Of a DNA stretch of 64,000 nucleotides, positions 11,287 to 28,927 are shown one piece after another. The number at the start of each line of letters is the position of its first letter. Position 1 is the stretch's first letter. The position numbers and the translations under genes are program-made. The notes under the pieces were generated by a model. It had not been told where the DNA came from, searched no databases, and saw only the letters and a program-made list of their open reading frames with translations. Source of the DNA: a virus. The DNA lies in IMG/VR virus record IMGVR_UViG_3300038379_000822, positions 1 to 64,000 of that record; one strand, 5' to 3'.

Positions 11287-12044
11287 GCGTGCTGTTCCTT
11301 CTGCAACCTCGGTAGGAGGTCGACGTATGCCTCTGGCGCGTAGGCGAGTTGCTCGAAGCTCGTGCCGTGGGCGCTGGTCGCGTTGGTGTCGCGCGTCCTC
11401 CGGCAGCCGCACCGCATGCAGCACTCATCCACGACGATGCCGCCATACGTGGCCCGAACCCCCGGGTTCTCTGCGTTGCCACCGACGATCGCGAGCGGGC
11501 GCTGCCAGTCATGACCATCGTCCGCGGCGCAGGGTGGCTCGACCGGGTCGAGTACGACCGTGGTGCTCAGCTCCTCATCGGTCTCGCCGCAGTGGACGCT
11601 GACCTCGATTGCCCAAGACCGCAGCAGGTCGACCTCATCGTCTTCGGTCTCTGCCTCGTACTCGTAGTTGGCACGCGTGCCCCCCCGCGTCGCGAGCTCG
11701 AGCGCCTCTTCGGGCGAGCTGGCAGTGACGATCCAGCACCCGTCGGTATCGGTGGCGTCCCACGACCGCGGACAGTCGCTGCCGGCCAGGGCTCGCAGCG
11801 CGCGGTCCACTGCCGCATCGGCAACGTCCCATACGGCGAGGGCCGCATCTCTTCGGTTCAGGAACTCGACGTAGCGAGGGTGCTCCTCGGTGAGCTCGCC
11901 AGCTTCCTGCAGCATTTCCTCGACCGGATCCCACTCGTTCTCACAGCAGTCGATCGCATGTTGCGCCATCGCGCGCTCTGCTTCCGCCCGTACGACGGCG
12001 GCACGTAGCGGATGGATCACGGGCGTCGGGGTCTCTTCAGTCAT
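11283..12044 (-). CDS. Hypothetical protein, paralog of 22291..22986 (acidic, C-terminal Cys cluster)
   Basis: Shares SSxEEALExA...ANYE, LDPxxPPC, GHxW, GGxxxNPGV and CxxCGC with the plus-strand ORF 22291..22986. Confidence 0.7.
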   Translation of the reverse strand: MTEETPTPVIHPLRAAVVRAEAERAMAQHAIDCCENEWDPVEEMLQEAGELTEEHPRYVEFLNRRDAALAVWDVADAAVDRALRALAGSDCPRSWDATDTDGCWIVTASSPEEALELATRGGTRANYEYEAETEDDEVDLLRSWAIEVSVHCGETDEELSTTVVLDPVEPPCAADDGHDWQRPLAIVGGNAENPGVRATYGGIVVDECCMRCGCRRTRDTNATSAHGTSFEQLAYAPEAYVDLLPRLQKEQHA

Positions 12045-17005: not shown

Positions 17006-17161
17006 GCATGTCAGCGCGAACCGATAGCTACGAGTTACATGACATCCTCCTCTGAAACCCCAAGCAGCGGCACCGAGCGCAACATGCGCTGGGGGTATCG
17101 TGGCGCTCCGATGTTGGCGCCGGGATGCCGGCCACCACGACGACAGCGGTAGACCATGTGA

Positions 17162-18052
17162 CTAGCATGACGAGGTCGTCTTTCCGTCGTTGGCCAGCTC
17201 GGTGAGCAGCGCCGCGAACCTTTCGCGCATGCCGTCGGGACAGGTTGCGGCGTAGACGACGGAGGCGGCGGCGTTGGCGCCGGAGGCGGCGGAGGCGTCT
17301 GCGTAGGCGTCTGCGTTGGCGGCGTTGGCGGCGTCCGCGCGGGCGGCGGTGACGGCGGCGTTGGCGGCGGCGTTGGCGGCGGCATTGGCGGCGGCGTTGG
17401 CGGCGGCGTTGGCGGCGGCATTGGCGGCGGCGTTGGCGGCGTTGGCGGCGGCGTTGGCGGCGGCGTTGGCGGCGGCATTGGCGGCGGCGTTGGCGGCGGC
17501 GTTGGCGGCGGCGTTGGCGGCGTTGGCGGCGTTGGCGAGGGCGTTGGCGAACGCGTTGGTGGCGCTGGCGGCGCTGGCGGCGCTGGCGGCGCTGGCGGCG
17601 CTGGCGGCGGCAGCGGCGGCAGCGGCGGCAGCGGCGGCAGCGGCGTCGTCGGCGGTCTTACGGTCGACGACCGTGGGCAGCGCCCGCAGTCGCTTGGCAT
17701 CCTGCTCTCGCCCCGCAGCATCCAGCGCCATCGCAGCCGCCACGCGGACCGCGAAATCGACGAGTCGATAGGCGCGTTGCTGTTCAACGGCGCGATCGCG
17801 GCGCGATCCGACCAGTGCGACCGAGACCGGCCCCATGATCCGCGTCCGCGTGGCGTCATCGTGGATTCGATCGTTCAGAAACCGCGCTGCTGCGGCGAGC
17901 AGCGGGCATGCGCACTTTGGATGGTCGCTATGCGGTTCGCCGGCGAGCCACGCCGTTACCTCGAGGGCGCACATGCCCTCCTCATGGGTCTTGTGTGAGC
18001 CGGACGCGATCGTGATGCCCGCGACGCGGGCGAGTAGGTCTTCGCGATTCAT
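17162..18052 (-). CDS. Paralog family P member 1: conserved N-domain (EGMCAxE..AGExHSDxPxCxCP) plus a long Ala/Asn/Ser tandem-repeat region
   Basis: ATG 18052 (MNREDLL...) is preceded by GGAGAA. HEEGMCALEVTAWLAGEPHSDHPKCACPLLAAAARFLND aligns with the ORFs at 18072, 24078, 24985 and 25608. The centre is (AANA)n, (AAS)n and poly-Ala. Confidence 0.75.
   Translation of the reverse strand: MNREDLLARVAGITIASGSHKTHEEGMCALEVTAWLAGEPHSDHPKCACPLLAAAARFLNDRIHDDATRTRIMGPVSVALVGSRRDRAVEQQRAYRLVDFAVRVAAAMALDAAGREQDAKRLRALPTVVDRKTADDAAAAAAAAAAAAAASAASAASAASAASATNAFANALANAANAANAAANAAANAAANAAANAAANAAANAANAAANAAANAAANAAANAAANAAANAAVTAARADAANAANADAYADASAASGANAAASVVYAATCPDGMRERFAALLTELANDGKTTSSC
17355..17645. 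repeat. Coding tandem repeats (12-nt GCGGCGTTGGCG units, then 9-nt GCGCTGGCG x5, then 9-nt CAGCGGCGG x4)
   Basis: Read directly in 17341..17650. They encode ...AANAAANAA..., ASAASAAS and poly-Ala in the minus-frame gene. Confidence 0.9.
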
Positions 18053-18071
18053 AGTTCTCCGTTCGCGGCGA

Positions 18072-18695
18072 TCATGCCGCGTTGGCGAGGCCGATGAGAA
18101 GACCGGCGAGAGCTTCCTGTGCTCGGGGGTCGGCGGCGGCGTCGACCGCGACCGCGACCGAGTAGCCAGTGAGCGGCACGTAGTCGGCTTCGGCGGGCGC
18201 ATGGGCCGCTACCAGCGCAGCGTTTGCGGCGAGGGCGACGCAGGAACGCTCCGCATGCGTGGCAGAGTAGGCCGTCATGCATGCCTTCGCTGCCGACGCG
18301 CTCACCCGTGCCGACGCGGCGTCGACGATCGGCGGGAGTGCGCGCAGCCGGGCAGCTTGTTCGGTGAGGCCGACGGCCTCGAGATCGGCCGGCGCCAGAT
18401 AGCGCACGGCCCAATCGGCCATGATGAAGGCGCGGCGGAGCTCGGTGACATGACCGACACGCGACCCGACCAAGGCTTCGGAGACCGGCCGCATGATGCG
18501 CGTGCGGCGCATGTCGTCACGGATGTCGTCGTTCAGCGGCCGGGCCGCGGCCGCCAGCACCCGATCGGCGGTCTCCGGATGGTCGGAGTGGGGTTCGCCC
18601 GCGAGCACCGCGGCCAGCTCGGTGGCGCAGAGCCCTTGCGCCGGCGAGGCGTGCTTGCCTCGCGTGAGCACCAGGAAAGGTGGTGCGGCAGTCAT
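18072..18695 (-). CDS. Paralog family P member 2 (degenerate Cys motif)
   Basis: ATG 18695 overlaps the upstream stop (ATGA). GLCATELAAVLAGEPHSDHPE...LNDDIRDD..RTRIMRPVSEALVGSR aligns with the family. Ala-rich C-half. Confidence 0.7.
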   Translation of the reverse strand: MTAAPPFLVLTRGKHASPAQGLCATELAAVLAGEPHSDHPETADRVLAAAARPLNDDIRDDMRRTRIMRPVSEALVGSRVGHVTELRRAFIMADWAVRYLAPADLEAVGLTEQAARLRALPPIVDAASARVSASAAKACMTAYSATHAERSCVALAANAALVAAHAPAEADYVPLTGYSVAVAVDAAADPRAQEALAGLLIGLANAA

Positions 18696-19057
18696 GAGGC
18701 CGTCTCCGCGCGATCGTAGCCCGCGCCTGGTACCGTCGCGAGGATCCACCGGATCGTCGCGCCTTCGGGGAGCGAAGTGGCGCCTTCCGGGAGCCGCGCG
18801 CCGTTGTATTGAGCGACGAGCAGTTCGTCGCCGGCACAGAGCTCCGTTCCGACGCGGCGCATGGGCACGTCGGCGCCAAGCAGGGACGAAACGAGCAGCG
18901 CGGTGTCGGCGTGGCCGACGCAGGATAGCCACCCTTCTTCGGCCGCATAGGCCCGCGCCTCGTCCAGCGAGAGCGAGCGGAACCCTACTTTGACGCCGTC
19001 CGCCAAGGCCGTGGCGGACAGCATGCCGCACGAGAACGCGTTTCCAATATACTTCAT
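18692..19057 (-). CDS. DUF1874 (STIV B116/YddF)-like protein
   Basis: MKYIGNAFSCGML...SCVGHADTALLVSSLLG...RLPEGATSLPEGATI fits my recollection of the DUF1874 pattern. ATGA overlap at 19054..19057. Confidence 0.55.
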   Translation of the reverse strand: MKYIGNAFSCGMLSATALADGVKVGFRSLSLDEARAYAAEEGWLSCVGHADTALLVSSLLGADVPMRRVGTELCAGDELLVAQYNGARLPEGATSLPEGATIRWILATVPGAGYDRAETAS

Positions 19058-19713
19058 GGCTTCTCCGGGGGCGATGGGGTGAGCGCGAGCGCGAGAATGC
19101 GCACGACGCGTAGATCTTGTTCGGCGGGCCAGCATTCGTCTGGCGGCCATTCTGCGTTGAGAGCGAAGAGCGGCGTCGAGTCGCCGGTGGCGACGAGGAC
19201 GTTCACGGCGTCCTCGATCGCTGCTCGCGTGTCTTCCGACGGCGCGAACCCGATGCGCCGTCCACGAAGCCGCTCACGCAGGGCGGCGTGGCCACCGAGT
19301 GCGAGAAAGAACGTGTCGAGCGCGACAGCGAGGGAGCAGACGAAGCAATCCGTGTCCGCGCAGTCGCGGATCCAGCGCTCGCACGTCTCAACGCTCGCTC
19401 CACCGAAGTGTTCCGGTCGGCATCGTATCGCTCGGATGTCGGGCTGATCGCAGAGGGCGACGAACGCGCCGCTCTGCTGCGTGAGGCGGCGCTTCGCGAC
19501 GGATAGTTGGACCGGATGCGCGCCCCGCTCACCGCAGACGGCGTGCTGGATGAGCGCATCGAGGTAGTCGGTGGCCGACCATGCCAGGAGCGCGGGCCAG
19601 TCTTCTCCTGGCAGGTAGTGAGCCCGCACCCCATGAAGGGACGGGGTCGGCTGCCGCGGGGTAGGCGCCATGAACGGCACCGTCGCGGGTTGTTCGGGGG
19701 CCATGGGGTTCAC
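19054..19713 (-). CDS. Hypothetical protein (219 aa, GTG start)
   Basis: GTG 19713 overlaps the upstream stop (GTGA). Cys/Trp-containing, balanced composition. Confidence 0.6.
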   Translation of the reverse strand: MNPMAPEQPATVPFMAPTPRQPTPSLHGVRAHYLPGEDWPALLAWSATDYLDALIQHAVCGERGAHPVQLSVAKRRLTQQSGAFVALCDQPDIRAIRCRPEHFGGASVETCERWIRDCADTDCFVCSLAVALDTFFLALGGHAALRERLRGRRIGFAPSEDTRAAIEDAVNVLVATGDSTPLFALNAEWPPDECWPAEQDLRVVRILALALTPSPPEKP

Positions 19714-20042
19714 GCTGGGGAGCGGCCTTCGCGCCGCCGCGCTTGCTGGAGAGCGGCCGCGGAACGGTCGAGGAGGGCCCTAGCGAGATCGAGCTCTCGC
19801 CACTTCGCTTCCCGCTCGTACGGGCACTCGCACTCGGGATCGCTCCCGAAGTAGCGGACAGCGAGGCGGTAGCCGTCCTCGGCTTCCAGGTAGGCCTGCT
19901 CGGCCTCGATCAGATGGGAGGATGGCGGGGGCCCGAGGAGACTCAGGGGTCGGCGGCGGGGGCGGTGAGCCATGCCTCCCAGCCGGGGCGGAACGGCCCC
20001 CCCCGGGGGGGTGGGGGAACGCTCGAGCGCGTACGTTGCCAT
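19710..20042 (-). CDS. Hypothetical protein (110 aa), first gene of the leftward block
   Basis: ATG 20042 lies inside inverted repeat IR1. Internal starts are possible. Confidence 0.5.
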   Translation of the reverse strand: MATYALERSPTPPGGAVPPRLGGMAHRPRRRPLSLLGPPPSSHLIEAEQAYLEAEDGYRLAVRYFGSDPECECPYEREAKWRELDLARALLDRSAAALQQARRREGRSPA

Positions 20043-20062
20043 AATGACGATTATGGCAACGT
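20033..20062. promoter_or_regulatory. IR1: ACGTTGCCATAAT-GACG-ATTATGGCAACGT, operator-like inverted repeat containing the leftward start codon
   Basis: 13-bp perfect arms with a 4-bp spacer, in the AT-rich gap between the divergent blocks. The minus-strand ATG (20042..20040) sits in an arm. Confidence 0.65.
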
Positions 20063-20073
20063 GTACAGGCTAG

Positions 20074-20103
20074 ACGTTTCCATAAGCTTCATTATGGAAA
20101 CGT
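20074..20103. promoter_or_regulatory. IR2: ACGTTTCCATAA-GCTTCA-TTATGGAAACGT, operator-like inverted repeat containing the rightward start codon
   Basis: 12-bp perfect arms with a 6-bp spacer. The plus-strand ATG 20094 sits in the right arm. Near-identical to IR1 read on the other strand. Confidence 0.65.
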
Positions 20104-20966
20104 TGCGCCCGATCGCCTTGAGCCCAGCCGTTCCGCCCCGGCTGGCTGCCATGACCACGACCCCACGCCCCTACGCCGTCCAGGCCCGCCACGAGGCGGC
20201 GCCGCAACCCCTCACCTCATGGTGCGGCCCGATGCTCGAAGCGGGCGCCGCCCGCTTCTCGGGTCGCCTCATCCCCGAGGCCGACGACCTGCAAGACCGT
20301 GCGATCCGCGCCGCCTCACGGAAGGTGGAGCGCTACGAGAGCATTGAGGCCGCCCTCGCCGCGGCCTGCGGCCCCCGGCCGGCCCTGCCCGAGGGCGATC
20401 TCGCCCTCAAGCAGAGCTACGAGACCGCCCGGGACGCGGCGCGCGAGGCACGCCTGGCCTACGCCACGGCGCCCAGCGCTGAGCGCGAGACCGCGCGGAC
20501 CGCGATGCACGCCGCGGAGCGCGGCGAAGACGCCTCCCTGGCGGCGTGGATGAAGTCTCGCCGCGCCGAGGCGCGGGGCCAGATCGCCGCGATCGACGCC
20601 GAAGCCGTCGCGGCCGGGAAGGCGACGCGCGCCGCCGAGCGCGCCGAAGCCCGCGCCCAGCGGCGCCTCACGGCCAGCGAGGCTCGTCTCGCGGCCAAGC
20701 TCGCGAAGCAGCAAGCGGCCGCCGAAGCGCGCCGCGCTGCCGCGAAGGCCGAGCTCGACGCCGTGCGCGAACGCGCCGCGGCGCTCCCAACGGTATCGGA
20801 CGAGGCCCGCCGCGAGGCGTGCCTCATCATCCGCGAGATCCGCACCAGCGCGCATGCGGATGCCGCGGCCGAGCTCATTAACGGGCTCATGCCCGAGGGC
20901 TGGGATCCGAACGTCGAGAAGCTCTTCGATCAGAAGACGAAGCAGGTCGCGCACCGCGCGGCGTGA
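20094..20966 (+). CDS. Ala/Arg/Glu-rich coiled-coil protein (290 aa), first gene of the rightward block
   Basis: ATG 20094 (METLRPIAL...) is the first start after the AT-rich switch. An alternative ATG lies at 20151. Long AEARxxA heptad-like segment. Confidence 0.65.
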   Translation: METLRPIALSPAVPPRLAAMTTTPRPYAVQARHEAAPQPLTSWCGPMLEAGAARFSGRLIPEADDLQDRAIRAASRKVERYESIEAALAAACGPRPALPEGDLALKQSYETARDAAREARLAYATAPSAERETARTAMHAAERGEDASLAAWMKSRRAEARGQIAAIDAEAVAAGKATRAAERAEARAQRRLTASEARLAAKLAKQQAAAEARRAAAKAELDAVRERAAALPTVSDEARREACLIIREIRTSAHADAAAELINGLMPEGWDPNVEKLFDQKTKQVAHRAA

Positions 20967-20972
20967 TCCCTC

Positions 20973-21821
20973 ATGTCCATTCACGACCAGATCCGGAGAG
21001 TCGCTTACCCCGGCGACGAGGACAGTGGTTTTCAAGCCTGTCAGCTCGCCGCGGCTACCCTGCGAATGGCAGGGTCCACGGTGCTCGAGAAGTGGCACTT
21101 CTACACCGCCGCCCGAGCATGGGCAGAACATGGTGAGTGGATGGTGGGCGCGCCTTGCCGCGCACGGGACACGCTGCCCTGGTCGCGAGCCGTGAGCCGC
21201 GCGGTCGAAGAGATCGCGAAGCCGCATCGCTTTGCGATGGAGCGCGCGAGCCTCGCGCTCGCGGAGGCTCTCGGCACTGCGACCGACAAGCGCGCACACC
21301 GTCACGTGGAGCTGATGGCCTATGCGGCCATCTTCGCGGCGCAGCAGATGGTGCTGCATCCCGACGCCGCGCGGGCGTTCGCGAAGATCTACGCCTCCAG
21401 CATGGAGGCGGGCAAGAAGCCGCCCGGCACGGTGGTGCTCGCCGAATGGCTTCGGCCGTTCCATGCGATGGAAGAAATCGTCGACCCAGTGCTCGACCCA
21501 TATGAGCGAGGGCAGGCCGCGCTGCGGCTGGCGACTCTGGCGGGACGCCAAGAGGAGTTCGCCGAAGAACTCAACGCCATCTTGGGCGAGCAGTCCACGC
21601 TCCACGCCTCATGTTCTCGAGAGCATGAGGCGTTTCGAGCCTTGAGCCAGGCGCGCGTGCCCTGTGCGCCCCCGCCGAACCACGCCGGCCGTTCCGCGCG
21701 CCTTGCTCAAGGCTCGAAACAGCGGAAAGTTCAGCGAGCGGCACGGCACGTCGGGAGCATCCCGGCGCTTGCCGCGTCGTTCTGCAGAGGAGCAGCCATG
21801 AACAACACGGAGGCGCCATGA
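20973..21821 (+). CDS. Hypothetical protein (282 aa; C-terminal ~60 aa doubtful)
   Basis: The ORF starts 7 nt after the previous stop. The last part spans a 16-bp-arm inverted repeat and is Arg-rich. Confidence 0.6.
   Translation: MSIHDQIRRVAYPGDEDSGFQACQLAAATLRMAGSTVLEKWHFYTAARAWAEHGEWMVGAPCRARDTLPWSRAVSRAVEEIAKPHRFAMERASLALAEALGTATDKRAHRHVELMAYAAIFAAQQMVLHPDAARAFAKIYASSMEAGKKPPGTVVLAEWLRPFHAMEEIVDPVLDPYERGQAALRLATLAGRQEEFAEELNAILGEQSTLHASCSREHEAFRALSQARVPCAPPPNHAGRSARLAQGSKQRKVQRAARHVGSIPALAASFCRGAAMNNTEAP
21632..21720. repeat. Long inverted repeat (16-bp perfect arms, 57-nt spacer)
   Basis: GTTTCGAGCCTTGAGC (21632..21647) is the exact reverse complement of 21705..21720. Confidence 0.65.
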
Positions 21822-22294
21822 GTCGCGTCGCTCGTATCCTGGAGCGGATCACGCAGTCCGTGCCGGAGCCCCGCTACCGCAAGTGGTGGGAGGCGGATGA
21901 GATCCACGAGGCGCCATTCGGCGCTACGCGGCAAGAGCTCGTCGTCGACGAGCTGGGCCCCACGGCCGCGGCGCTGCGGCGCGAGATCCTCGAAGCTGCG
22001 CGCGAACGCCGTCGCGCGCGGCAAGAGGCATGCTCTCACGCGCATGCCTCTGTGATGCACGTAAAGGGCGTCACTGAGCTGTCGTGCCCAACCTGCGGGC
22101 GGCGCGAGGGGCGTGGGCAGAAGTATCTCGGGGCCGACGCCAGGCTTCGAAAATGGGCCTGCCGGCAGACGCTAGCGACGATCGCTGCGATGCTGCGCGC
22201 CGGTTCGCGTCCCGACATCCATGACCAGGTGGAGTGGGGCCATGACGCGCAGCGATGGCTCCATGACGTTCTCGTGCAGGAGGCACCCTCGTGA
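21818..22294 (+). CDS. Hypothetical protein (158 aa)
   Basis: ATGA overlap with the previous stop. Contains CPTCG. Confidence 0.6.
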   Translation: MSRVARILERITQSVPEPRYRKWWEADEIHEAPFGATRQELVVDELGPTAAALRREILEAARERRRARQEACSHAHASVMHVKGVTELSCPTCGRREGRGQKYLGADARLRKWACRQTLATIAAMLRAGSRPDIHDQVEWGHDAQRWLHDVLVQEAPS

Positions 22295-22986
22295 TCATGT
22301 ACCCCAGCGAACTCACCGTCTCAGCCATCGCCGCACTCGAGGCCGTCTACGGCCTCGGCGACCACACCGACGTCGTCGAGCACGACGTCGAAGCGCTGCG
22401 CGACGGCTCGCACACCCGCGAGTCGCTGCTCGCCCACTGCCTCGACGGCGCCAGCATGGCGGCCGATGAGGAGGAAGTAGTACGGGCCGCGTGGGAGTCG
22501 TACGTCGACGGCATCGTGGCGCTCGCGGCGAAGCCTCGGCGATGGGAGCTGGTCGAGGAGGGGCACAGTTACGACGTTGGCGAAGCGTCTTCCGCCGAGG
22601 AAGCGCTCGAGATCGCCAAGGCGCGGGTCGACCGCGCGAACTACGAGGTCGACCGCTCGATCTGGATTCACGTTGCGGTACGCCGCGAGGGGATCCCCGG
22701 CGTCGTCGCCGGCGCCAAGGTGCGGCTCGATCCCAAGCCGCCGCCGTGCGGACGCAACGGCGGCGAACACGCGTGGTCGGACGACCACGACATGGTCGGC
22801 GGTTGCAAGTCGAACCCCGGGGTCTGGGGCAGCGGAGGCGGCGTCCGCATGCACTGGGGCTGCAAGAAGTGCGGCTGCCAGAAAGCCGTCGACACGTGGG
22901 CGCAAGACCCGTACGACGGAGAGCAGGGGCTCACGTCGGTGGAGTACAACGAGCGCCACTACGACGTCGCTCGCGAGGAGCCATGA
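22291..22986 (+). CDS. Hypothetical protein, paralog of 11283..12044
   Basis: GTG 22291 overlaps the previous stop (GTGA). Shared motifs SSAEEALEIA..ANYE, LDPKPPPC, EHAW, GGCKSNPGV and CKKCGC. Confidence 0.7.
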   Translation: MIMYPSELTVSAIAALEAVYGLGDHTDVVEHDVEALRDGSHTRESLLAHCLDGASMAADEEEVVRAAWESYVDGIVALAAKPRRWELVEEGHSYDVGEASSAEEALEIAKARVDRANYEVDRSIWIHVAVRREGIPGVVAGAKVRLDPKPPPCGRNGGEHAWSDDHDMVGGCKSNPGVWGSGGGVRMHWGCKKCGCQKAVDTWAQDPYDGEQGLTSVEYNERHYDVAREEP

Positions 22987-23342
22987 GGCTCATCAGGACC
23001 ATCACGCCCGTCGGGATCACGCCGCAGCCCGATCTTTCTCCAGGCTGCTACGAAGTGCAGCTGGCTCTCGAGTTGAGGGTCGGTCGGCAGATCGAGAAGG
23101 CATCGACGAGCTTCTTCGTGGTGCCGACCAGATTCGGCAACCGCAGTTGCCGCTTCGAGCTTATCGCAAGCGACAAGGCAGATCCCAATGCAACGCCCAT
23201 CTACGCATGGCTCGTCGAGCACGCCGAGCTCCTGAAACTCTCCGGCGAAGTCGAGCGGTGCATGGTCGCGATGGCGGAAGCAGCGTGCGAACATGCACAC
23301 TGGATGGTGATCGAACGCAAGACGTGGGAGATCGATCAATGA
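22983..23342 (+). CDS. Hypothetical protein (119 aa)
   Basis: ATG 22983 overlaps the previous stop (ATGA). The upstream part of track ORF 22491..23342 is Arg-rich shadow. Confidence 0.65.
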   Translation: MRLIRTITPVGITPQPDLSPGCYEVQLALELRVGRQIEKASTSFFVVPTRFGNRSCRFELIASDKADPNATPIYAWLVEHAELLKLSGEVERCMVAMAEAACEHAHWMVIERKTWEIDQ

Positions 23343-24088
23343 CTGACTCAGCGAAGGAGACGGCAGCCGCTGCCGAGTGGGCAGCGTTCCAAGCCAGCGT
23401 GAGGCTGGACGACCTCGACGCCGAGCGCGAGCGCGTGGCGGCGATGATCGCGCGCGCCAAGGCGCTCCCTGGCAGCGCAGCCGCCGATTTGGTGGCCCGT
23501 CTGCGCTATCGTGATGCTCGCAACCGTAGCGACTGTAGTGACGCACGCTGGGCCACGTTGGAGGCCCAACGTGCGGCCGACGCGGCGGCCTGCGCTGTGC
23601 TGACGCGATGGCAGAAGGGCGCATTGCTGCGCCTCGCCGTGGAGTACGGCCACGGCTGGGCGGAGTACGTCCCCGCTGACGGCGACTGGGACTACCAGAC
23701 GATCTGCGACGCGATGAGCGCCGCGGAGAATGCCGAGGATTTCGGTCGCCCGACGGCTGGCATCAGGCCCGGCAGGCGGCACACCACCGGGACGGGGCGG
23801 CTCACCTGGTCCGCCGAGCTCGACGGCACCATTCGGGTGTCCGTCTCTCGACCGACCCCAAACGGTAGCCTCACGGTGCTCATCGCAGACGTGACCGAGG
23901 GCGGCAGCCCTGCGATCACGGTGCGCCCCTTCGACGGAGTCCCCATCGAGGCCCGCCATGCGGATGCGCTGTACCGGGCTCTCGACGCTATCGAGGGTTC
24001 GGAGCATCAGTCGTCATGGCCCGCGCCGCGCTTCACTCTCCAGATGGCCCTCGATGCCGCGAACACGGAGGTGACCCATGACGGATGA
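23339..24088 (+). CDS. Hypothetical protein (249 aa)
   Basis: ATG 23339 overlaps the previous stop. MTDSAKETAAAAEW... Confidence 0.65.
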   Translation: MTDSAKETAAAAEWAAFQASVRLDDLDAERERVAAMIARAKALPGSAAADLVARLRYRDARNRSDCSDARWATLEAQRAADAAACAVLTRWQKGALLRLAVEYGHGWAEYVPADGDWDYQTICDAMSAAENAEDFGRPTAGIRPGRRHTTGTGRLTWSAELDGTIRVSVSRPTPNGSLTVLIADVTEGGSPAITVRPFDGVPIEARHADALYRALDAIEGSEHQSSWPAPRFTLQMALDAANTEVTHDG

Positions 24089-24509
24089 AGAGCTTGAGCT
24101 GTTGGGGCCCGACCAGTCGGGTAGCGCGTGCCCCGTGTTGGCGGCGGCGTTTCGGTCGCTGAACGACGCACTCGAAGGCCCCGAGCGGGCCGCCCTCTTG
24201 GCGCCGGTGGCCGTGGCGCTCGTCGGCTCGCGCCGCGATCTCGAAACGGAGCTGCGGCGCGCGTGCCGCCTCATCGACTGGGCGGTCCGTGTGGCCACGC
24301 CGCGCGTGCTAGACTTCGCGGGGTTCATCGACGCGGCGGAGCGCTTGCGCGCGCTCCCCGAGATCGTCGACCGCGAGACGGCCTTAGCCGCCCGCGACGC
24401 CGCAGAGGTCGTCGCGTACGCCATTGAACAAGTCATCACCAAGGGTGACCCCGCGACCCAAGCAGAGCTGGCAGAGCTGATCGTTCGGCTCGCGAAGGAG
24501 AGCCAATGA
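24078..24509 (+). CDS. Paralog family P member 3 (short, N-motif truncated)
   Basis: SACPVLAAAFRSLND...VAVALVGSRRD...RLRALPEIVD...ELAELIVRLAKE aligns with the family. Confidence 0.65.
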   Translation: MTDEELELLGPDQSGSACPVLAAAFRSLNDALEGPERAALLAPVAVALVGSRRDLETELRRACRLIDWAVRVATPRVLDFAGFIDAAERLRALPEIVDRETALAARDAAEVVAYAIEQVITKGDPATQAELAELIVRLAKESQ

Positions 24510-24988
24510 CCACGGACGAACTGAAGGACGAGTTCGTCAAGCGGTTCGCCGCGTGGTTCAACACGCAGAATCTGTACGCGCAGGCCCTCGCAGAGCTGCG
24601 CGAGCAGAAATGGCGCGCGCTCGGTCATGCCCGATGGACGGAGCAGCAACGCTTGGCGATGGTTGCACCATTCGAGAAGCGAGCCGATGAGGCGTATGAC
24701 GCTGACCAGGAAGCCCTTCGGTGTTTCTGCCAGCTGGCCACCCAGATCACGCTGCTGGCGAGTTCCTGCAACATTGCATCGGAAGCGCGCGCGGCGCTGG
24801 TGCCGGCGGATAACTGGGCACTGCTCGCGACCGTCAATCGCGAGAGGTTGAACGAGTGCGCGCGAGAGCACCTTGAGCAGTGCTTCTATAGCGAGTCGCG
24901 CGCCGTGGCGCGAGCGTATGGTTACGTGGATCCGCCGTCAGAGGACGAGGACGATGCGCATGCTGAGCTGGCGAAGGAGGCAACCTGA
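24506..24988 (+). CDS. Hypothetical protein (160 aa)
   Basis: ATGA overlap with the previous stop. Confidence 0.65.
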   Translation: MTTDELKDEFVKRFAAWFNTQNLYAQALAELREQKWRALGHARWTEQQRLAMVAPFEKRADEAYDADQEALRCFCQLATQITLLASSCNIASEARAALVPADNWALLATVNRERLNECAREHLEQCFYSESRAVARAYGYVDPPSEDEDDAHAELAKEAT

Positions 24989-25611
24989 ACACCGACGACA
25001 TCATCATCCTGCACGGCAAGCACGCGACGCGTGAGGAGGGCATGTGCGCGATGGAGCTGGTGGCCTACCTCGCGGGCGAGGTGCACAGCGATCGTCCGCA
25101 TTGCGCATGCCCGGTGCTGGCTGAGGCGGCGCGCGTGCTGAACGATCTCATCGACAACGACGCTGACCGAACGCGGATCATGCGTCCCGTCGCCGAGGCG
25201 CTGGTGGGTTCGCGCCGCGACGCTGCAACGGCGCAGCGCCGTGCGTACCGGCTCGCCGACTTCGCCGTCCGCGTGGCGGCGCCTGCGGCGCTCGACGCCG
25301 CGGGGCGTGCGGAGAATGCGGCGCAACTGCGAGCAGTATCGCCGATCGTCGACCCGGATACCGCAAGAACTGCGTGTGACGCCGCCTACGCCTACGCCTA
25401 CGCCGCCACCGCCGCCACCGCCGCCACCGCCGCCACCGACGTCGCCGCCATCAACGCCGCCATCGCCGCCACCTACGCCACCAACGCCACCGACGTCGCC
25501 GCCATCAACGCCGCCATCGCCGCCATCAACGCCGCCATCGCCGCCAACGCCGCCGGCATGCGCAAAGAACTCGCTTCGCTCATCATCGAGCTGGCCAAGG
25601 AGGAAACGTGA
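24985..25611 (+). CDS. Paralog family P member 4; likely non-canonical CTG start (the track ORF starts at ATG 25042)
   Basis: The in-frame sequence upstream of ATG 25042 reads LNTDDIIILHGKHATREEG, homologous to the N-termini of members 1 and 5. The only plausible start is CTG 24985, 4 nt after AAGGAGG, overlapping the previous TGA (CTGA). Confidence 0.65.
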   Translation: MNTDDIIILHGKHATREEGMCAMELVAYLAGEVHSDRPHCACPVLAEAARVLNDLIDNDADRTRIMRPVAEALVGSRRDAATAQRRAYRLADFAVRVAAPAALDAAGRAENAAQLRAVSPIVDPDTARTACDAAYAYAYAATAATAATAATDVAAINAAIAATYATNATDVAAINAAIAAINAAIAANAAGMRKELASLIIELAKEET

Positions 25612-26168
25612 ACGACATCGTCATCCTGCGCGGCGAACACAAGACGCGCGAGGAAGGCATGTGCGCGATGGAGCTGGTGGCCTACCTCGCGGGCGAGGAG
25701 CACAGCGATCATCCGCGGTGCGCGTGCCCAGTGCTGGCCGGCGCCGCTCGCGGTCTGAACGACCGCATCCGCGACGACGCCAAGCGAACGCGGATCATGC
25801 TGCCGGTCGCTGAGGCGCTGGTCGGCTCGCGACGCGACGCTGCAACGGAGCAGCGCCGTGCGTACCGGCTCACCGACTTCGCCGTCCGCGTGGCGGCGCC
25901 TGCGGCGCTCGACGCCGTAGGTTACACGGAGGATGCAGCGCGGCTGCGGGCGCTGTCGCCGATCGTCGACCCGGATACCGCAAGGACTGCGAGTGACGCC
26001 GCCAACGCCCGCGCCTTCTCCAATGCCCTCGCCTATGCCGCCTATGCCGCCGCCGCCGCCGCCGCCGACGTCGCCCTCGCCTATGCCGCCGCCGCCGCCG
26101 CCTGCGCCGCCGGCATGCACGTAGCGCTTGCGGAGCTGATCGTCGCGCTCGCTAACGAGACGCCTTGA
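25608..26168 (+). CDS. Paralog family P member 5
   Basis: GTG 25608 follows AAGGAGGAAAC and overlaps the previous stop. REEGMCAMELVAYLAGEEHSDHPRCACPVLAGAARGLND. Ala/Tyr-rich repeat region. Confidence 0.75.
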   Translation: MNDIVILRGEHKTREEGMCAMELVAYLAGEEHSDHPRCACPVLAGAARGLNDRIRDDAKRTRIMLPVAEALVGSRRDAATEQRRAYRLTDFAVRVAAPAALDAVGYTEDAARLRALSPIVDPDTARTASDAANARAFSNALAYAAYAAAAAAADVALAYAAAAAACAAGMHVALAELIVALANETP

Positions 26169-26698
26169 TGAACCACAACAGCGCCCGTCGCGCTGCTGGA
26201 GCACAAGCCATGCATTCCGATCTTCGTGACCTGCTGCTTCGACTCGAAGACGCGCTAGAAACGATCGCGAGCATCAAACTCGCGTATAAGGCTGCCTTGG
26301 CGGTAGCGTGGCGGCATCCGGCATGGACCGAGATGTCGTTCCACTTCAACGACATCGCCGCACGGTGCCTCGATCTGATCGCCGAGACGGAGCGAGCGTT
26401 CAACGCCATCCTTCGCGTGCGCGATGTCGCGCGATGCGAGGCCGCGTTCGAAGCGGTTCGTGGGCTGTTCGAGGCGCAAGAGCGAGTGGTCCAAGCCCTG
26501 GATGATTGGCAGAGGCTCGCGCTGACCGACGCCAAGAGTCGCGACGTGGAGCTCGCACTCCTGGACCTCCAGGCAACGCTGCGCCACCGCGACGGCGTGC
26601 TTGTGGATCTCGCTCCACTCATCGCGGAAGCCAAAGCATGGCGGACCTCGAACGCGCCCTCGGTGAGCCGGCCACTCTCGCCGCTCCGCGAGAACTGA
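26165..26698 (+). CDS. Hypothetical helical protein (177 aa)
   Basis: ATGA overlap with the previous stop. Confidence 0.6.
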   Translation: MMNHNSARRAAGAQAMHSDLRDLLLRLEDALETIASIKLAYKAALAVAWRHPAWTEMSFHFNDIAARCLDLIAETERAFNAILRVRDVARCEAAFEAVRGLFEAQERVVQALDDWQRLALTDAKSRDVELALLDLQATLRHRDGVLVDLAPLIAEAKAWRTSNAPSVSRPLSPLREN

Positions 26699-26700
26699 CC

Positions 26701-27129
26701 ATGGTCATGCTTTCGCGATCAATGCGGAGCGCCATCGTGCTTCCAGGTGTCGAGCTGATTCGCGACCAACTTGAGATAATACTCGACCGGCTTCCGCGGG
26801 AAGCGTTCGCTGCGACGAACCTGCGCATCGCGTTCGAGCTGCCGTACGACGGCGTCAACACTCTGGCTGTGCTCGTCGTCGACCTGACGTCCGATGCGAC
26901 GGTGCGCGTGACCACCACGAATCGGGATGACTGTGATCTGCGCCTCTTCATCCCCCAGGAAGACTTCCTGGCGATCGCGACCGGCCGCTCGTCGCTGATG
27001 TCGCGCTTCGATCATGGCACCATCCTGGTTGCTGGCGACATCGCGCTGTTCGAGCGGCTGCTTCAGCTGCTGCCGCATCTCGAGCGGCTATGGAACGAGG
27101 AAGGAACTTCATCGCATGAAGCCGAGTAG
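26701..27129 (+). CDS. SCP2-like (sterol-carrier/alkylsulfatase C-terminal-like) domain protein, tentative
   Basis: ATG 26701 lies 2 nt after the previous stop (alternative ATG 26638). The pattern DLRLFIPQEDFLAIATGRSSLMSRFDHGTILVAGDIALFERLLQLL resembles SCP2. Confidence 0.5.
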   Translation: MVMLSRSMRSAIVLPGVELIRDQLEIILDRLPREAFAATNLRIAFELPYDGVNTLAVLVVDLTSDATVRVTTTNRDDCDLRLFIPQEDFLAIATGRSSLMSRFDHGTILVAGDIALFERLLQLLPHLERLWNEEGTSSHEAE

Positions 27130-27679
27130 CCATCGTCTCACCGTTGAGCTACCCGCGCGCCTTGCCGCGGGGCTGTTGCGCTTCACGTCGGACGCAGCGG
27201 ACCACGACATGGTCGTCGTGTCGCTCAAACGCAACAAGCTGCGCTTCGTGGTGCACGCGCACGACGGCTGGAGCGCCGAGATTTCGCAGTTCGTGCACGA
27301 TGACGACCGGCAGCTCTGGTGCGTTCAAGCGCGAACGTTGCGCGCGGCTGTGCGCGCCGTAGGGCTACGTGGCCTCATCGTGCTGAGCGAGGCCCTCAAG
27401 CCCGACCTGCTTCAGGTAGACGCCAGCACGAACAGCGTCGGCGTCGGCATGCTTAGCACCCCGTGGAAGACGATTTCCAAGCAACGCACACAGGAGCCAG
27501 TCACGCACGTCCGCGTCGCCGCGGCTCGCTTGGTGCATGCGGCGGCGCTGGCGAAAGCGATCGGCGCGGAGGCCACGATCGCTCCGGACTTCGCCGGCGC
27601 GGTCTTGATGATGAAGGGGCCCGCTAGTCGCGAAGGCGGCCAACTTTCGCTTCGCATCGAGATGCCGCGAGCCGCTTGA
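27116..27679 (+). CDS. Hypothetical protein (187 aa)
   Basis: ATG 27116 is preceded by GAGGAAGGAA. 14-nt overlap with the previous gene. Confidence 0.6.
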   Translation: MKPSSHRLTVELPARLAAGLLRFTSDAADHDMVVVSLKRNKLRFVVHAHDGWSAEISQFVHDDDRQLWCVQARTLRAAVRAVGLRGLIVLSEALKPDLLQVDASTNSVGVGMLSTPWKTISKQRTQEPVTHVRVAAARLVHAAALAKAIGAEATIAPDFAGAVLMMKGPASREGGQLSLRIEMPRAA

Positions 27680-27688
27680 CGCCCCATC

Positions 27689-27704
27689 TGCTAGCATGCT
27701 AGCA
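27689..27704. promoter_or_regulatory. TGCTAGCATGCTAGCA palindrome (site 3)
   Basis: Perfect 16-bp palindrome followed by CCAG, in the 48-nt gap between plus-strand genes (27679/27728). Confidence 0.6.
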
Positions 27705-27727
27705 CCAGTAACCGCCACGGAGACCCC

Positions 27728-28927
27728 ATGAACAACAAGACGGCGGAGGAGCTGCGCAACAAGCTCGCCGCGGAGATTCAGAAGAATGGCGGCGACCAGC
27801 AGCTGCTCGGGTACCAGTTCGGAGCGCGCTGGCCCGAGAACAAGGGCTCGCTCTACCCGCGCGAGCAGATCGCGAAGATCTGCGAGGAGCAGGGATTCAA
27901 GAACGCTGCCAAGGTGGCGCGCGAGTGCACGCCCGAACAGGCGCTCGTCGATGCCGTGCGCGCGCGCGGCGCCATCCTCGCTGCCGACGCGGCGAAGAAC
28001 CTCGAGAAGCACTCTTCGGGGAATCGGAAGTACATCTTCCACATCAATCCGCTCTACGCCGACAAGGACGACGGGCACTTGCGAGCCTTCGGTGTGTACC
28101 GTGAGCAGCGCAGCGAAAGTGAGCGCTCGTCGTCCTTCGAGCGACTCGGCGCGCGTATCTACGCGACCAGTGAGCAGGTCGTCGCGTCGGCCCCGCTCGA
28201 TGGTGCCCCAGACGCGTCCGCCGAGATCATCGCTGCCGAGATCACGAGACACGCCGGCGTGCTGCTCGAGTTCCTCGACAACACGCTGATGGGCAAGGTG
28301 TTGCTGGCCTGCTATGCGCAGGCTGGCGCCATCGTGCATCTATGTGAAGGGCTGCGCCTCTGCCTGGACCTCGACGCGGGCAGCCGCCTCGTCGATCTGA
28401 TCATCCGGTTGAAGTCGGAGGCCCAGGTGCCGGTGTCGTTCGAGCCGCGGTTCCGCGGCGGCCTATCCGAGGCGCATGCGTCGGAGAGCCTCACGCGAAG
28501 CATGGTGCAACGCATCGATCAACTCTGCCGCCAGCTGGCCGGAGAGTCCGGGCGTACCGTTCGCCCGCTGACGCTGATCCGTCGGCAGGACGAGCTCAAC
28601 GCGATGCTCGACGACGTGCAGCGCTATGCGAGCCTGCTCGACACCTTCAAGCAGAACATCGTCGTGAAGGTCGAGAGCCTCAAGGAGCAGTACCTGGCCG
28701 CACAACGCGGCCGAACGCTCCAGCTGCCGGACTGGGCACTCGAGGAGCCAAGCAGTGACGCCAACCTCTTCGCCAGCGTCACTGAGGACGCCGTGCCGGA
28801 GAGCGACCGTGCTGCGGTCATCCCGGATGGCGACGTCGACGCTACGGCGCCTCCGCCGCCCGCAACGCCACCACCCGTTGCGCCAACGACCGCACAAAGG
28901 CGCAGCGCGCTGGACGACTGGGCGTGA
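27728..28927 (+). CDS. Hypothetical protein (399 aa), Pro-rich C-terminus
   Basis: Long ORF with balanced composition. First gene after palindrome site 3. Confidence 0.75.
   Translation: MNNKTAEELRNKLAAEIQKNGGDQQLLGYQFGARWPENKGSLYPREQIAKICEEQGFKNAAKVARECTPEQALVDAVRARGAILAADAAKNLEKHSSGNRKYIFHINPLYADKDDGHLRAFGVYREQRSESERSSSFERLGARIYATSEQVVASAPLDGAPDASAEIIAAEITRHAGVLLEFLDNTLMGKVLLACYAQAGAIVHLCEGLRLCLDLDAGSRLVDLIIRLKSEAQVPVSFEPRFRGGLSEAHASESLTRSMVQRIDQLCRQLAGESGRTVRPLTLIRRQDELNAMLDDVQRYASLLDTFKQNIVVKVESLKEQYLAAQRGRTLQLPDWALEEPSSDANLFASVTEDAVPESDRAAVIPDGDVDATAPPPPATPPPVAPTTAQRRSALDDWA

What the first reader, a model, noticed from the sequence alone, without database searches (positions are those of the whole stretch)
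17162..26168. Five-member paralog family with a conserved Cys/His N-domain, a hypervariable Ala-rich repeat core and a conserved C-terminal helix
The ORFs at 17162..18052 and 18072..18695 (minus strand) and at 24078..24509, 24985..25611 and 25608..26168 (plus strand) share several blocks. These are (G)xHKTxEEGMCAxELVAYLAGExHSDxPxCACPVLAxAARxLND...RTRIMxPVAxALVGSRRD...YRLxDFAVRVAAPAALDA...RLRALxPIVD and a C-terminal ELxxLIxxLAxE. Between these blocks lie non-homologous low-complexity repeats: (AANA)n, (AAS)n and poly-Ala in one member; ATAATAAT and TDVAAINAAIAA x2 in another; AYAAAAAA in a third. Two members have decayed Cys motifs. Copies flank the central switch on both sides. Multi-copy, rapidly diversifying families in phage early regions are often anti-defense or host-takeover factors, but I cannot assign this family to any known domain.
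Basis: seen in the sequence. Interest (0 to 1): 0.66.

Follow-up and report, generated by a model that had tools for sequence, protein, structure and literature searches.

The report
Unannotated phage protein family, repeat arm
Five real paralogous genes belong to a very large protein family that no database annotates, built from a conserved Cys/His "head" and an alanine-rich helical "arm" that changes by DNA repeat slippage; its function is still unknown.

Summary
Five ORFs (A 17162-18052-, B 18072-18695-, C 24078-24509+, D 24985-25611+, E 25608-26168+) share an N-domain of about 125 aa and a C-terminal helix, separated by non-homologous Ala-rich repeats. They form one clade, so they duplicated within this element.

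They belong to a huge unannotated family: 9,159 clusters at 50% identity, with no Pfam, NCBIfam, PADLOC or PDB match. The only library matches are PHROGs of unknown function.

AlphaFold2 gives a confident all-alpha head (pLDDT 88, pTM 0.83) with no fold match in the PDB. H11, C19, E22, E30, D34, C38, N51, D52 and R60 are conserved in at least 95% of members, which suggests a zinc staple plus a binding site.

The arm evolves far faster than the head. Close relatives have heads 93-98% identical but arms only 50-70% identical, with many indels. Arm Ala codons in A, D and E are 81-92% GCC, against 33% in background genes. Eleven of 53 viral contigs end inside the arm.

Phage copies are normally single and have no conserved neighbour. 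Chromosomal relatives in Planctomycetota, Acidimicrobiia and Propionibacteriales have non-repetitive tails. B and C have lost Cys ligands.

An anti-defence or host-takeover role remains plausible but untested.

The parts
17162..18052 (-). Paralog A (296 aa). Intact head with the longest arm. Head = aa 1-131 (17660-18052), Ala-rich arm = aa 132-271 (17240-17659), C-terminal helix = aa 272-288 (17189-17239).
   Evidence: Translation. HMM E = 4e-47. All conserved head residues present. AF2: head pLDDT 86-97, arm helical but low confidence, C-helix pLDDT 73-82.
17264..17655 (-). In-frame DNA tandem array inside A. A 12/24-nt unit GGCGGCGGCGTT (= AANA on the coding strand) of ~21 copies, plus a 9-nt unit x4.7 (AAS) at 17604-17645.
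   Evidence: TRF. 83 of 94 Ala codons in the region after the head are GCC. An independent public contig (L005) ends at window 17421, inside this array.
18072..18695 (-). Paralog B (207 aa). The head keeps H11 and C19 but has C38T and C40D. The tail is Ala/Val-rich but not repetitive.
   Evidence: HMM E = 2e-42. Mixed Ala codons in the tail (GCC 12/30). dN/dS against the others 0.34-0.54.
24078..24509 (+). Paralog C (143 aa). N-terminally truncated head (lacks H11, C19, E22, E30; C38S) and almost no arm. The C-helix is kept.
   Evidence: HMM E = 5e-23, matching profile positions 40-126. dN/dS 0.36-0.54.
24985..25611 (+). Paralog D (208 aa, TTG start overlapping the upstream stop). Intact head (24985-25359). 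The arm carries TAA / TDVAAINAAIAA repeats (DNA array 25379-25559). C-helix ~25555-25608.
   Evidence: HMM E = 4e-49. 33 of 36 arm Ala codons are GCC.
25608..26168 (+). Paralog E (186 aa, GTG start overlapping D's stop). Intact head (25608-25973), AYAAAAAA-type arm (25974-26111, DNA repeats 26030-26112), C-helix 26112-26165.
   Evidence: HMM E = 1e-50. AF2 model pLDDT 88.1, pTM 0.83. 25 of 31 arm Ala codons are GCC.

Best explanation
**What it is.** The five ORFs are a within-element expansion of a very large, unannotated, single-gene protein family. The family is carried mainly by environmental tailed-phage and mobile-element genomes, and it has cellular relatives.

**Predicted architecture.** Each protein has a compact all-alpha head of ~125 N-terminal residues. 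The conserved C-terminal amphipathic helix probably folds back onto this head (inferred; no model coordinates were available). Between the two lies a protruding helical arm.

**The head.** It carries a near-invariant set of residues: H11, C19 and C38 (plus C/H/S at position 40), and the polar cluster E22, E30, D34, N51, D52, R60, R84, D90, R94. I infer a structural Zn staple (His-Cys-Cys-Cys/His) joining the N-terminal hairpin to the starts of helices 1 and 2. I infer that the polar cluster is a binding site for a partner or ligand common to many bacterial phyla.

**The arm.** In mobile copies it is made of 2-4-residue Ala-rich repeats encoded by short in-frame DNA tandem repeats, mostly built on one Ala codon. 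It grows, shrinks and is replaced by replication slippage or unequal recombination far faster than the head changes. This gives a length- and surface-variable arm on a constant head.

**Most likely biological role (inferred, not shown).** A non-structural accessory protein expressed from the early/accessory operons. It engages a conserved cellular component through the head (host takeover or anti-defence). The arm would act as a variable spacer, oligomerisation surface or exposed surface.

**Paralogs B and C.** They have lost metal ligands and arm repetitiveness but are still under purifying selection. They are older, diverged or sub-functionalised copies.
For: **Shown**
- Family membership of all five: E = 1e-50 to 5e-23.
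- The five form one clade in a 250-sequence NJ tree.
- Family size: 9,159 representatives at E <= 1e-3 and 1,318 at E <= 1e-30. In the 150 best-scoring representatives the head lies at or near the N-terminus.
- AF2 model of E: pLDDT 88.1, pTM 0.83, all-alpha, with the arm as a helix pair 122-149 / 153-182 and a high-confidence C-terminal stretch. In A the arm is helical at low confidence.
- Conservation over 252 sequences: H11 100%, C19 98%, E22 99%, E30 96%, D34 96%, C38 95%, N51 and D52 100%, R60 99%. Position 40 is C 58% / S 33% / H 4%.
- Purifying selection on the heads: dN/dS 0.29-0.54.
- The arm evolves faster than the head. Pairs with heads 93-98% identical have arms 50-70% identical with 15-31 gap columns. 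In three of these pairs the C-helix is 86-95% identical. D and E have heads 80% identical but non-homologous arms.
- The arm is a DNA-level repeat. TRF finds arrays. Ala codons in the arms of A, D and E are 88%, 92% and 81% GCC. This compares with 19-33% in their own heads and 33% in nine other window genes (all five arms pooled vs those genes: Fisher p = 9e-30). Family-wide, 39 of 50 Ala-rich arms have a higher GCC share than their heads, against 18 of 39 non-repetitive tails.
- Ala-richness persists in low-GC contigs: L044 (42% GC, 55% Ala) and L038 (46% GC, 49% Ala).
- Eleven of 53 viral contigs, plus L005, end inside the arm. Four GTDB contigs carrying Ala-rich arms also end there, against 1 of ~40 with non-repetitive tails.
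- Accessory, single-gene nature: there is no conserved neighbour across the 53 viral loci. Homologue contexts are small-ORF, replication or recombination modules.

**Inferred**
- The Zn site, the binding role of the polar cluster, docking of the C-helix on the head, and the host-directed function.
Against: - No metal is modelled, and I could not inspect model coordinates. One third of members have Ser at position 40, so a four-ligand Zn site is not universal.
- There is no functional, expression or interaction evidence of any kind.
- No anti-defence library was available. PADLOC, which covers defence systems, gave nothing.
- Arm confidence is low (pLDDT 41-76), and arm repeat periods differ between members (2, 3 and 4 residues). 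A defined arm structure or function is therefore doubtful.
- Stable chromosomal branches in housekeeping neighbourhoods show the head is not intrinsically a phage weapon.
- The arm-versus-head comparison uses proteins pre-clustered at 90% identity. That enriches for pairs whose arms differ.
- The only second assembly of this exact locus is 99.99% identical and stops inside array A. Variation within this lineage is therefore not shown.
Confidence: 0.5

Rival explanations
1. **Neutral runaway low-complexity.** The head plus C-helix is the whole functional unit. The arm would be a permissive surface hairpin in which slippery GCC-type triplet repeats expand and contract with no adaptive value. The five copies would be ordinary duplicates, two of them decaying.
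For: - Arm repeat periods and side chains are very heterogeneous: AANA, AAS, AAY, AS/AY, AAWD, ADAV.
- Arm pLDDT is low.
- Cellular branches do without repeats. Some members have almost no arm, such as paralog C and P0067.
- Codon homogeneity points to mutation-driven expansion.
Against: - Ala-rich arms are retained in nearly all mobile copies, across hosts from 42 to 71% GC, including low-GC contigs.
- The reading frame is always kept open.
- The association of repeats with mobile copies, but not with chromosomal copies, is systematic.
Confidence: 0.3
2. **The head is an enzyme.** It would be a Cys/His-dependent hydrolase or transferase with C19 as nucleophile and H11 as base, rather than a Zn-stapled binding module.
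For: - H11, C19 and E22 are near-invariant. Many other conserved polar residues (E30, D34, N51, D52, R60) are more than a structural Zn site needs.
- Position 40 is often Ser, so a full Cys/His tetrad is not universal.
Against: - The predicted all-alpha fold has no similarity to any solved structure, thiol enzymes included (best Foldseek E = 2.1).
- No Pfam hit recurs even at E <= 10 over 44 heads.
- C38 is as conserved as C19, and position 40 alternates between Cys and His, which is typical of metal ligands.
- Paralogs B and C lose C38, or the whole N-terminal motif, yet stay under purifying selection.
Confidence: 0.12
3. **Zinc-binding anti-sigma-like (ZAS-like) regulator.** It would sequester a host or phage sigma factor or another transcription component.
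For: - It is a small helical domain with His/Cys ligands.
- Sigma-70-family genes occur within ~9 kb of two homologues.
- The genes sit in early, regulatory-type regions.
Against: - The defining HxxxCxxC motif is absent. The family has H35-x2-C38-x-C40, and H35 is only 48% conserved.
- There is no Pfam zf-HC2/RskA-type hit and no Foldseek match in the PDB.
- No conserved sigma-factor neighbour exists in the 53 viral loci.
- None of the 10 nearest window neighbours has a sigma-factor domain.
Confidence: 0.05
4. **Programmed diversification by a diversity-generating retroelement, or a virion fibre protein with a variable coiled coil.**
For: Localised hypervariability lies next to a conserved scaffold in phage genomes. 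The Ala-rich helical segments could form fibres.
Against: - No reverse transcriptase appears in any annotated neighbourhood or among the scanned window ORFs.
- Differences between relatives are repeat indels, not adenine-specific substitutions.
- The genes lie in early, replication or accessory modules, not in structural modules.
- There are no conserved structural neighbours.
Confidence: 0.03

Closest known systems
PHROG families phrog_3416, phrog_13065 (head) and phrog_8332, phrog_18326 (W/D/R-type arm plus C-helix), all 'unknown function'
   Same: These are the only library entries that match. The window heads hit phrog_13065 and phrog_3416 at E = 0.005-0.13. More typical family members hit at 1e-4 to 1e-11. 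So a few deposited phage genomes already contain members.
   Different: The matches to the window proteins are below any confident threshold. Only 2 of 50,697 deposited phage records have a tblastn-detectable copy.
Coding tandem-repeat (contingency-type) stalk regions, e.g. the Ser-Asp repeat stalks of staphylococcal MSCRAMM adhesins (comparison from general knowledge)
   Same: In-frame short DNA repeats give a length-variable, low-complexity segment between conserved parts and change by slippage. One family member's arm even gives a low-complexity hit to the SdrC/SdrD repeat models.
   Different: Those are secreted cell-wall adhesins with disordered SD stalks. Here the protein is small with no recognisable domain of any kind. 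The arm is Ala-rich and predicted helical, and both ends return to one globular head. There is no homology.
Zinc-binding anti-sigma (ZAS) domains
   Same: Small helical domain with conserved His/Cys, found in regulatory contexts.
   Different: The HxxxCxxC motif is absent, there is no fold or profile match, and there is no partner sigma gene.
Diversity-generating retroelement target proteins
   Same: A phage-borne protein whose variability is confined to one segment on a constant scaffold.
   Different: There is no reverse transcriptase or template repeat. Variation comes from repeat indels, and the predicted fold is all-helical rather than the lectin-type fold I recall for DGR targets (general knowledge).
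Alanine-rich helical hairpins/bundles (Alacoil-type packing; type I antifreeze proteins). Comparison from general knowledge only.
   Same: Very high Ala content with regularly spaced larger residues, and a predicted antiparallel helix pair.
   Different: There is no sequence or fold match. Repeat periods here are 2-4 residues and inconsistent between members. The context is phage and mobile-element genomes.

Membership tests
Unnamed 'Cys/His head + Ala-rich arm' family (defined here; includes phrog_3416/13065) | N-terminal head of ~125 aa matching the family profile | tested here: met
   hmmsearch E = 4e-47 (A), 2e-42 (B), 5e-23 (C, partial, positions 40-126), 4e-49 (D), 1e-50 (E).
Unnamed 'Cys/His head + Ala-rich arm' family (defined here; includes phrog_3416/13065) | Near-invariant H11, C19, C38 (with C/H/S at 40) and N51-D52, R60 | tested here: met
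   A, D and E have all of them. B has C38T and C40D. C lacks H11 and C19 and has C38S. N51, D52 and R60 are present in all five. The feature is therefore met for three members and partly met for two.
Unnamed 'Cys/His head + Ala-rich arm' family (defined here; includes phrog_3416/13065) | Variable segment followed by a conserved C-terminal amphipathic helix | tested here: met
   Alignment A1. AF2 places a confident C-terminal helix in E (pLDDT 92-97) and in A (73-82).
Zinc-binding protein (structural Zn site) | Four Cys/His ligands in suitable geometry, and bound metal | not testable with these tools
   Only the conservation pattern is available. Model coordinates could not be inspected and no metal is modelled.
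ZAS anti-sigma factors | HxxxCxxC motif, anti-sigma-domain fold, adjacent sigma factor gene | tested here: not met
   The motif here is H-x2-C-x-C, and that His is only 48% conserved. There is no Pfam or PDB fold match. There is no conserved sigma neighbour.
DGR variable proteins | Nearby reverse transcriptase, a template/variable repeat pair, adenine-specific substitutions | tested here: not met
   No RT domain appears in the annotated neighbourhoods or in the scanned window ORFs. Variation is by repeat indels. The whole window was not exhaustively scanned for RT.
Papain-like / NlpC-P60 Cys-His hydrolases | Alpha+beta fold with the catalytic Cys at a helix N-terminus and His on a beta-strand | tested here: not met
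   The AF2 model is all-alpha apart from two bridge residues. Foldseek best E = 2.1 against the PDB.
Known anti-phage defence system components (PADLOC) | Profile match to a PADLOC model | tested here: not met
   No hit better than E = 0.42. No anti-defence (Acr-type) library was available, so that side is untested.
Slippage-driven coding tandem-repeat (contingency-type) locus | In-frame DNA tandem repeats, codon homogeneity, and length differences between close relatives | tested here: met
   TRF arrays. GCC is 81-92% of arm Ala codons in A, D and E, against 33% in background genes. Close pairs differ by 15-31 gap columns in the arm. Variation within this exact lineage could not be tested, because the only other contig stops inside the array.

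The most novel reading that the evidence does not exclude
The family would be a previously unrecognised protein module found across many phyla. Its head would be a new Zn-binding fold that recognises a conserved bacterial component. In phage and mobile copies, the arm would be a self-diversifying element: a retroelement-independent, slippage-based diversification device that tunes or disguises the protein in phage-host conflict. The five-copy expansion in this element would then be a small repertoire of arm variants.
Probability: 0.15. Interest if true: 0.8.

Novelty: categorically new. Interest (0 to 1): 0.55.

Why it matters
**Why the family stands out**
- It has thousands of 50%-identity clusters, yet it has no Pfam, NCBIfam or PDB counterpart.
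- Its head domain is confidently predicted but matches no solved structure.
- It links phage and mobile-element genes to conserved chromosomal genes of Planctomycetota and Actinomycetota.

**What it would mean if the head binds a universal bacterial component**
- It would be a new handle on phage-host interaction.
- The arm would be a natural example of repeat-slippage diversification in phage proteins.

**Practical points**
- These arms break short-read assemblies. About 20% of the viral contigs carrying the gene end inside it. This matters for metagenomic phage genome completeness and for gene calling.
- The public call for paralog D starts at ATG 25042, which cuts off the conserved N-terminus (including H11) compared with the homology-supported TTG start at 24985.
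- A cultured carrier exists (Ralstonia phage RS-CA1), so the function is directly testable.

Tried and rejected
- **Profile libraries.** Pfam, NCBIfam and PADLOC on the five proteins gave nothing meaningful. Pfam at E <= 10 on 44 head sequences showed no recurrent family. NCBIfam on ten diverse members gave only low-complexity noise.
- **Solved structures.** A profile search of PDB sequences returned only poly-Ala artefacts. Foldseek against the PDB gave nothing (best E = 2.1). BFVD returned only uncharacterised phage proteins.
- **Deposited phages and plasmids.** Megablast of 15 kb against phages found no match. tblastn found only RS-CA1 and one unannotated faecal phage. Plasmid hits were short chromosomal or megaplasmid matches in Nonomuraea and Pseudonocardia.
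- **Conserved partner genes.** A search across 53 viral loci found none; the only shared clusters were the gene itself and its antisense ORFs. Conserved synteny in the cellular branches involves housekeeping genes (Phosphodiest, DPPIV/S9, MazG + TP_methylase, hemE/hemY) with no evident link.
- **DGR, ZAS, thiol-hydrolase and virion-fibre ideas.** All were rejected; see the rival explanations.
- **Strain-level variation of the window's own arms.** This could not be assessed. The only other contig is 99.99% identical and ends inside array A.
- **Host or element identity.** The 1369-aa recombinase-domain protein has no phage match, and the ISL3 region has no plasmid match.
- **Literature.** Searches for the repeat motif and for Ala-rich phage repeats found nothing relevant.
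- **IMG/VR scans.** Two attempts failed before a usable query (A5) was found.

Full report
**1.

The five ORFs exist as described:
- A: 17162-18052 (-), 296 aa
- B: 18072-18695 (-), 207 aa
- C: 24078-24509 (+), 143 aa
- D: 24985-25611 (+), 208 aa, starting from a TTG that overlaps the upstream stop
- E: 25608-26168 (+), 186 aa

MAFFT aligns an N-terminal block of ~125 residues with 33 invariant columns and 55-81% identity to E. It also aligns a C-terminal helix. Between these lie segments that cannot be aligned. The segments are low-complexity and Ala-rich in A, D and E, Ala/Val-rich but non-repetitive in B, and almost absent in C.

Tandem Repeats Finder shows that the repetitive segments are in-frame DNA arrays:
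- a 12/24-nt unit of ~21 copies, plus a perfect 9-nt unit x4.7, in A
- 9-54-nt units in D
- GCC-rich repeats in E

A profile built from the heads of 44 family members (40 of them unrelated homologues) scores the five at E = 1e-50 to 5e-23. The third-codon-position GC pattern supports C and E as coding, and D from its ATG. A and B did not pass that filter and rest on the profile matches and the independent public gene calls. B has C38T and C40D. C lacks the first ~40 residues and has C38S.

**2. What the family is**

There is no hit in Pfam, NCBIfam or PADLOC. Pfam scanned at E <= 10 over 44 heads shows no recurrent family. PHROGs give only weak matches to four families of unknown function.

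A word-indexed search with the five heads found 116 proteins. All are hypothetical, 88-237 aa long, and have no precomputed Pfam domain. An exhaustive HMMER search of 1.84 billion 50%-identity representatives with a 44-sequence head profile found 9,159 proteins at E <= 1e-3, 6,402 at E <= 1e-10 and 1,318 at E <= 1e-30. In the 150 best hits the head is at or near the N-terminus and lengths run from 116 to 355 aa.

The tails of most members are Ala-rich (median 40% Ala). A small set of secondary residues (D, R, Y, V, S, T, G, W, N) is arranged in 2-4-residue repeats such as AAWDAARA, AAYAA, ASAY, ADAV and AANA. The tails end in a conserved amphipathic helix.

**3. Structure**

AlphaFold2 on E with a 104-sequence alignment gives mean pLDDT 88.1 and pTM 0.83. 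The model contains:
- a tiny N-terminal hairpin
- helices 20-27, 41-53, 57-71, 78-103 and 107-114
- an Ala-rich helix pair, 122-149 and 153-182, whose last third is the conserved C-helix (pLDDT 92-97)

The arm itself dips to pLDDT 56-76. For A the head is again confident (86-97). The long arm is predicted helical but at pLDDT 41-69, and the C-helix scores 73-82.

Foldseek finds nothing in the PDB (best E = 2.1, TM ~0.2) and only uncharacterised phage proteins in BFVD. A profile search of PDB sequences finds only poly-Ala artefacts.

Across 252 sequences the conservation is:
- H11 100%, C19 98%, E22 99%, E30 96%, D34 96%, P36 99%, C38 95%
- N51 and D52 100%, R60 99%, R84 92%, D90 89%, R94 87%
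- position 40: C 58%, S 33%, H 4%, D 4%

C19 sits at the start of helix 1, C38 and C40 sit just before helix 2, and H11 is in the hairpin. I read this as a probable His-Cys-Cys-(Cys/His) zinc staple plus a conserved polar site. This is an inference. No coordinates or metal could be examined.

**4. The arm changes by DNA slippage and much faster than the head**

(a) Pairs of family members whose heads are 93-98% identical have arms only 50-70% identical, with 15-31 gap columns. The C-helix is 86-95% identical in P0070/72, P0096/97 and P0050/66. One caveat applies: the database is pre-clustered at 90% identity, which favours such pairs.

(b) D and E are tandem duplicates (head dS 0.34, ~80% aa identity), yet their arms are non-homologous.

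(c) Ala codons in the arms of A, D and E are 88%, 92% and 81% GCC. In their own heads the figure is 19-33%, and in nine other window genes it is 33% (all five arms pooled vs those genes: Fisher p = 9e-30). The non-repetitive tails of B and C have ordinary mixed usage. Family-wide, 39 of 50 Ala-rich arms are enriched in GCC relative to their heads, against 18 of 39 non-repetitive tails. Some arms are homogenised on GCG instead.

(d) Ala-rich arms persist in contigs of 42-52% GC (L044, L038, L026). In L038, 84 of 87 Ala codons are GCC. Ala-richness is therefore not just a side effect of genome GC content.

(e) The arm is an assembly breakpoint. Eleven of 53 IMG/VR contigs end inside it, where about one would be expected by chance. 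The independent JGI contig L005 (99.99% identical to window 17421-28898) also ends there, as do four GTDB contigs with Ala-rich arms. Only 1 of ~40 contigs with non-repetitive tails ends in the tail.

**5. Evolution of the five copies**

In a neighbour-joining tree of 250 heads the five form one clade. They therefore arose by duplication in this lineage. Head dN/dS is 0.29-0.54 for every pair, including B and C, so none looks like a free-running pseudogene. dS is ~0.9-1.3 except for D/E.

Five copies is unusual. In 52 of 53 viral loci only one copy lies within +-6 kb, and one locus (L027) has a tandem pair.

**6. Context and distribution**

The window is 63-70% GC. Genes are leftward up to ~20 kb, rightward from ~20 to 45 kb, and leftward again beyond that. 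Recognisable genes are:
- two DNA methyltransferases
- a MoxR AAA+/VWA pair
- ThyX
- an ISL3 transposase
- a 1369-aa protein with a tyrosine-recombinase domain
- glycosyltransferases
- a STIV-B116-like gene immediately upstream of B

The other ORFs that were scanned have no match, and no virion gene was identified among the ORFs scanned.

Homologues in viral contigs lie among small ORFs or among replication and recombination genes (YqaJ, RusA, RecT, primase/helicase, methylases). They have no conserved neighbour. In the cultured Ralstonia phage RS-CA1 the homologue (219 aa, W/D/R-type arm) sits between the annotated endolysin and holin. Only two of 50,697 deposited phage records carry a detectable copy.

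A GTDB scan shows chromosomal branches:
- Many Planctomycetota have a conserved, non-repetitive ~80-aa tail.
- Acidimicrobiia have a ~305-aa non-repeat segment following the head in place of the arm.
- Propionibacteriales have a different helical tail.

All three sit in stable housekeeping neighbourhoods. Ala-rich-arm copies occur in contigs binned to Gordonia, Mycobacterium, Microbispora, Myxococcales, Dehalococcoidia, Gemmatimonadaceae and others.

**7. Interpretation**

The best-supported model is a constant, probably Zn-stapled head closed by the C-terminal helix. The head carries a conserved polar site. From it protrudes a helical arm that, in mobile copies, is made and remade by slippage of short in-frame repeats.

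The facts that point to a non-structural accessory protein are the head's conservation across hosts from several phyla, the absence of a partner gene, and the placement in accessory or early modules. Such a protein would bind something common to many bacteria. Host takeover or anti-defence is the most likely class of function, but nothing here tests it.

The main rival is that the arm is neutral, runaway low-complexity in a permissive hairpin. The heterogeneity of repeat periods and the repeat-free cellular branches favour that view. The systematic retention of Ala-rich arms in mobile copies across GC backgrounds argues against it. The enzyme, ZAS-like, DGR and fibre readings were tested as far as possible and are unlikely.

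**8. Novelty and verdict**

The sequences are 'known unknowns': a few sit in unnamed PHROGs. No library describes the domain, no solved structure resembles it, and no paper was found. The family's size, its phage-cell distribution, the head's conservation pattern and the slippage-driven, assembly-breaking arm are, as far as these tools show, undescribed.

I rate it a real, moderately interesting finding whose function remains open.

Noticed in passing
window 20033-20103: There are two 30-bp AT-rich palindromes 41 bp apart in the divergent intergenic region. They are ACGTTGCCATAAT-GACG-ATTATGGCAACGT (perfect 13+4+13) and ACGTTTCCATAAGCTTCATTATGGAAACGT. They look like paired operator sites of the 'central switch'. 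A 27-nt inverted repeat (19971-19997 / 20127-20153) brackets them. The simple scan found no sigma-70-type promoter.
   Followed up: partly
window 24985-25042: The public gene call for paralog D starts at ATG 25042, which cuts off the conserved GxH motif (H11). Homology to the family supports the TTG at 24985, which overlaps the upstream stop (TTGA).
   Followed up: yes
L017, L020, L022, L024, L030, L031, L035, L037, L045, L050, L051 (3' ends); L005 start = window 17421: About 20% of the IMG/VR contigs that carry the gene terminate inside its Ala-rich repeat. The arrays are therefore a systematic short-read assembly breakpoint in ~25-50-kb phage contigs.
   Followed up: partly
window 18692-19057 (-): A 121-aa STIV B116-like protein (PF08960, E = 1e-7) is encoded immediately upstream of paralog B, and its stop overlaps B's start codon.
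   Followed up: no
window 45560-49669 (-): A 1369-aa ORF carries a tyrosine-recombinase (Phage_integrase) domain at residues ~439-505 only. The rest is unassigned, and tblastn finds no match in 50,697 phage records.
   Followed up: partly
window 42139-43590 (-): A complete ISL3-family transposase (Zn ribbon + HTH + DDE) lies on the strand opposite to the surrounding rightward genes. It is probably an IS insertion into the element. No near-identical copy was found in the plasmid collection.
   Followed up: partly
window 12041-14613 (-): A MoxR-type AAA+ ATPase (bpMoxR domain, E = 2e-36) is followed by a VWA-domain protein. The MoxR gene's stop overlaps the VWA gene's start codon. Two DNA methyltransferases lie nearby (3795-5156, 10510-11424).
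   Followed up: no
window 17035-17859 (-) and 17316-17771 (+): The GCC-based array of paralog A keeps long ORFs open in another sense frame (Pro/Thr-rich, PPTPPP...) and on the antisense strand ((LAAA)n). These are most likely by-products of the repeat, not genes. They did not pass the codon-position GC filter.
   Followed up: partly
L062 and L063 (Tessaracoccus, Kribbella chromosomes): The Propionibacteriales branch of the family lies within ~5-6 kb of haem-biosynthesis genes (URO-D, and an Amino_oxidase-family flavoprotein that may be the haem oxidase) in both genomes. This is probably conserved synteny rather than a functional link.
   Followed up: no
L006 5974-6630 (Ralstonia phage RS-CA1, XDQ96087.1): This is the one cultured-phage homologue with annotated neighbours. 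It sits between the annotated endolysin and holin genes, so a link to lysis timing cannot be excluded.
   Followed up: no
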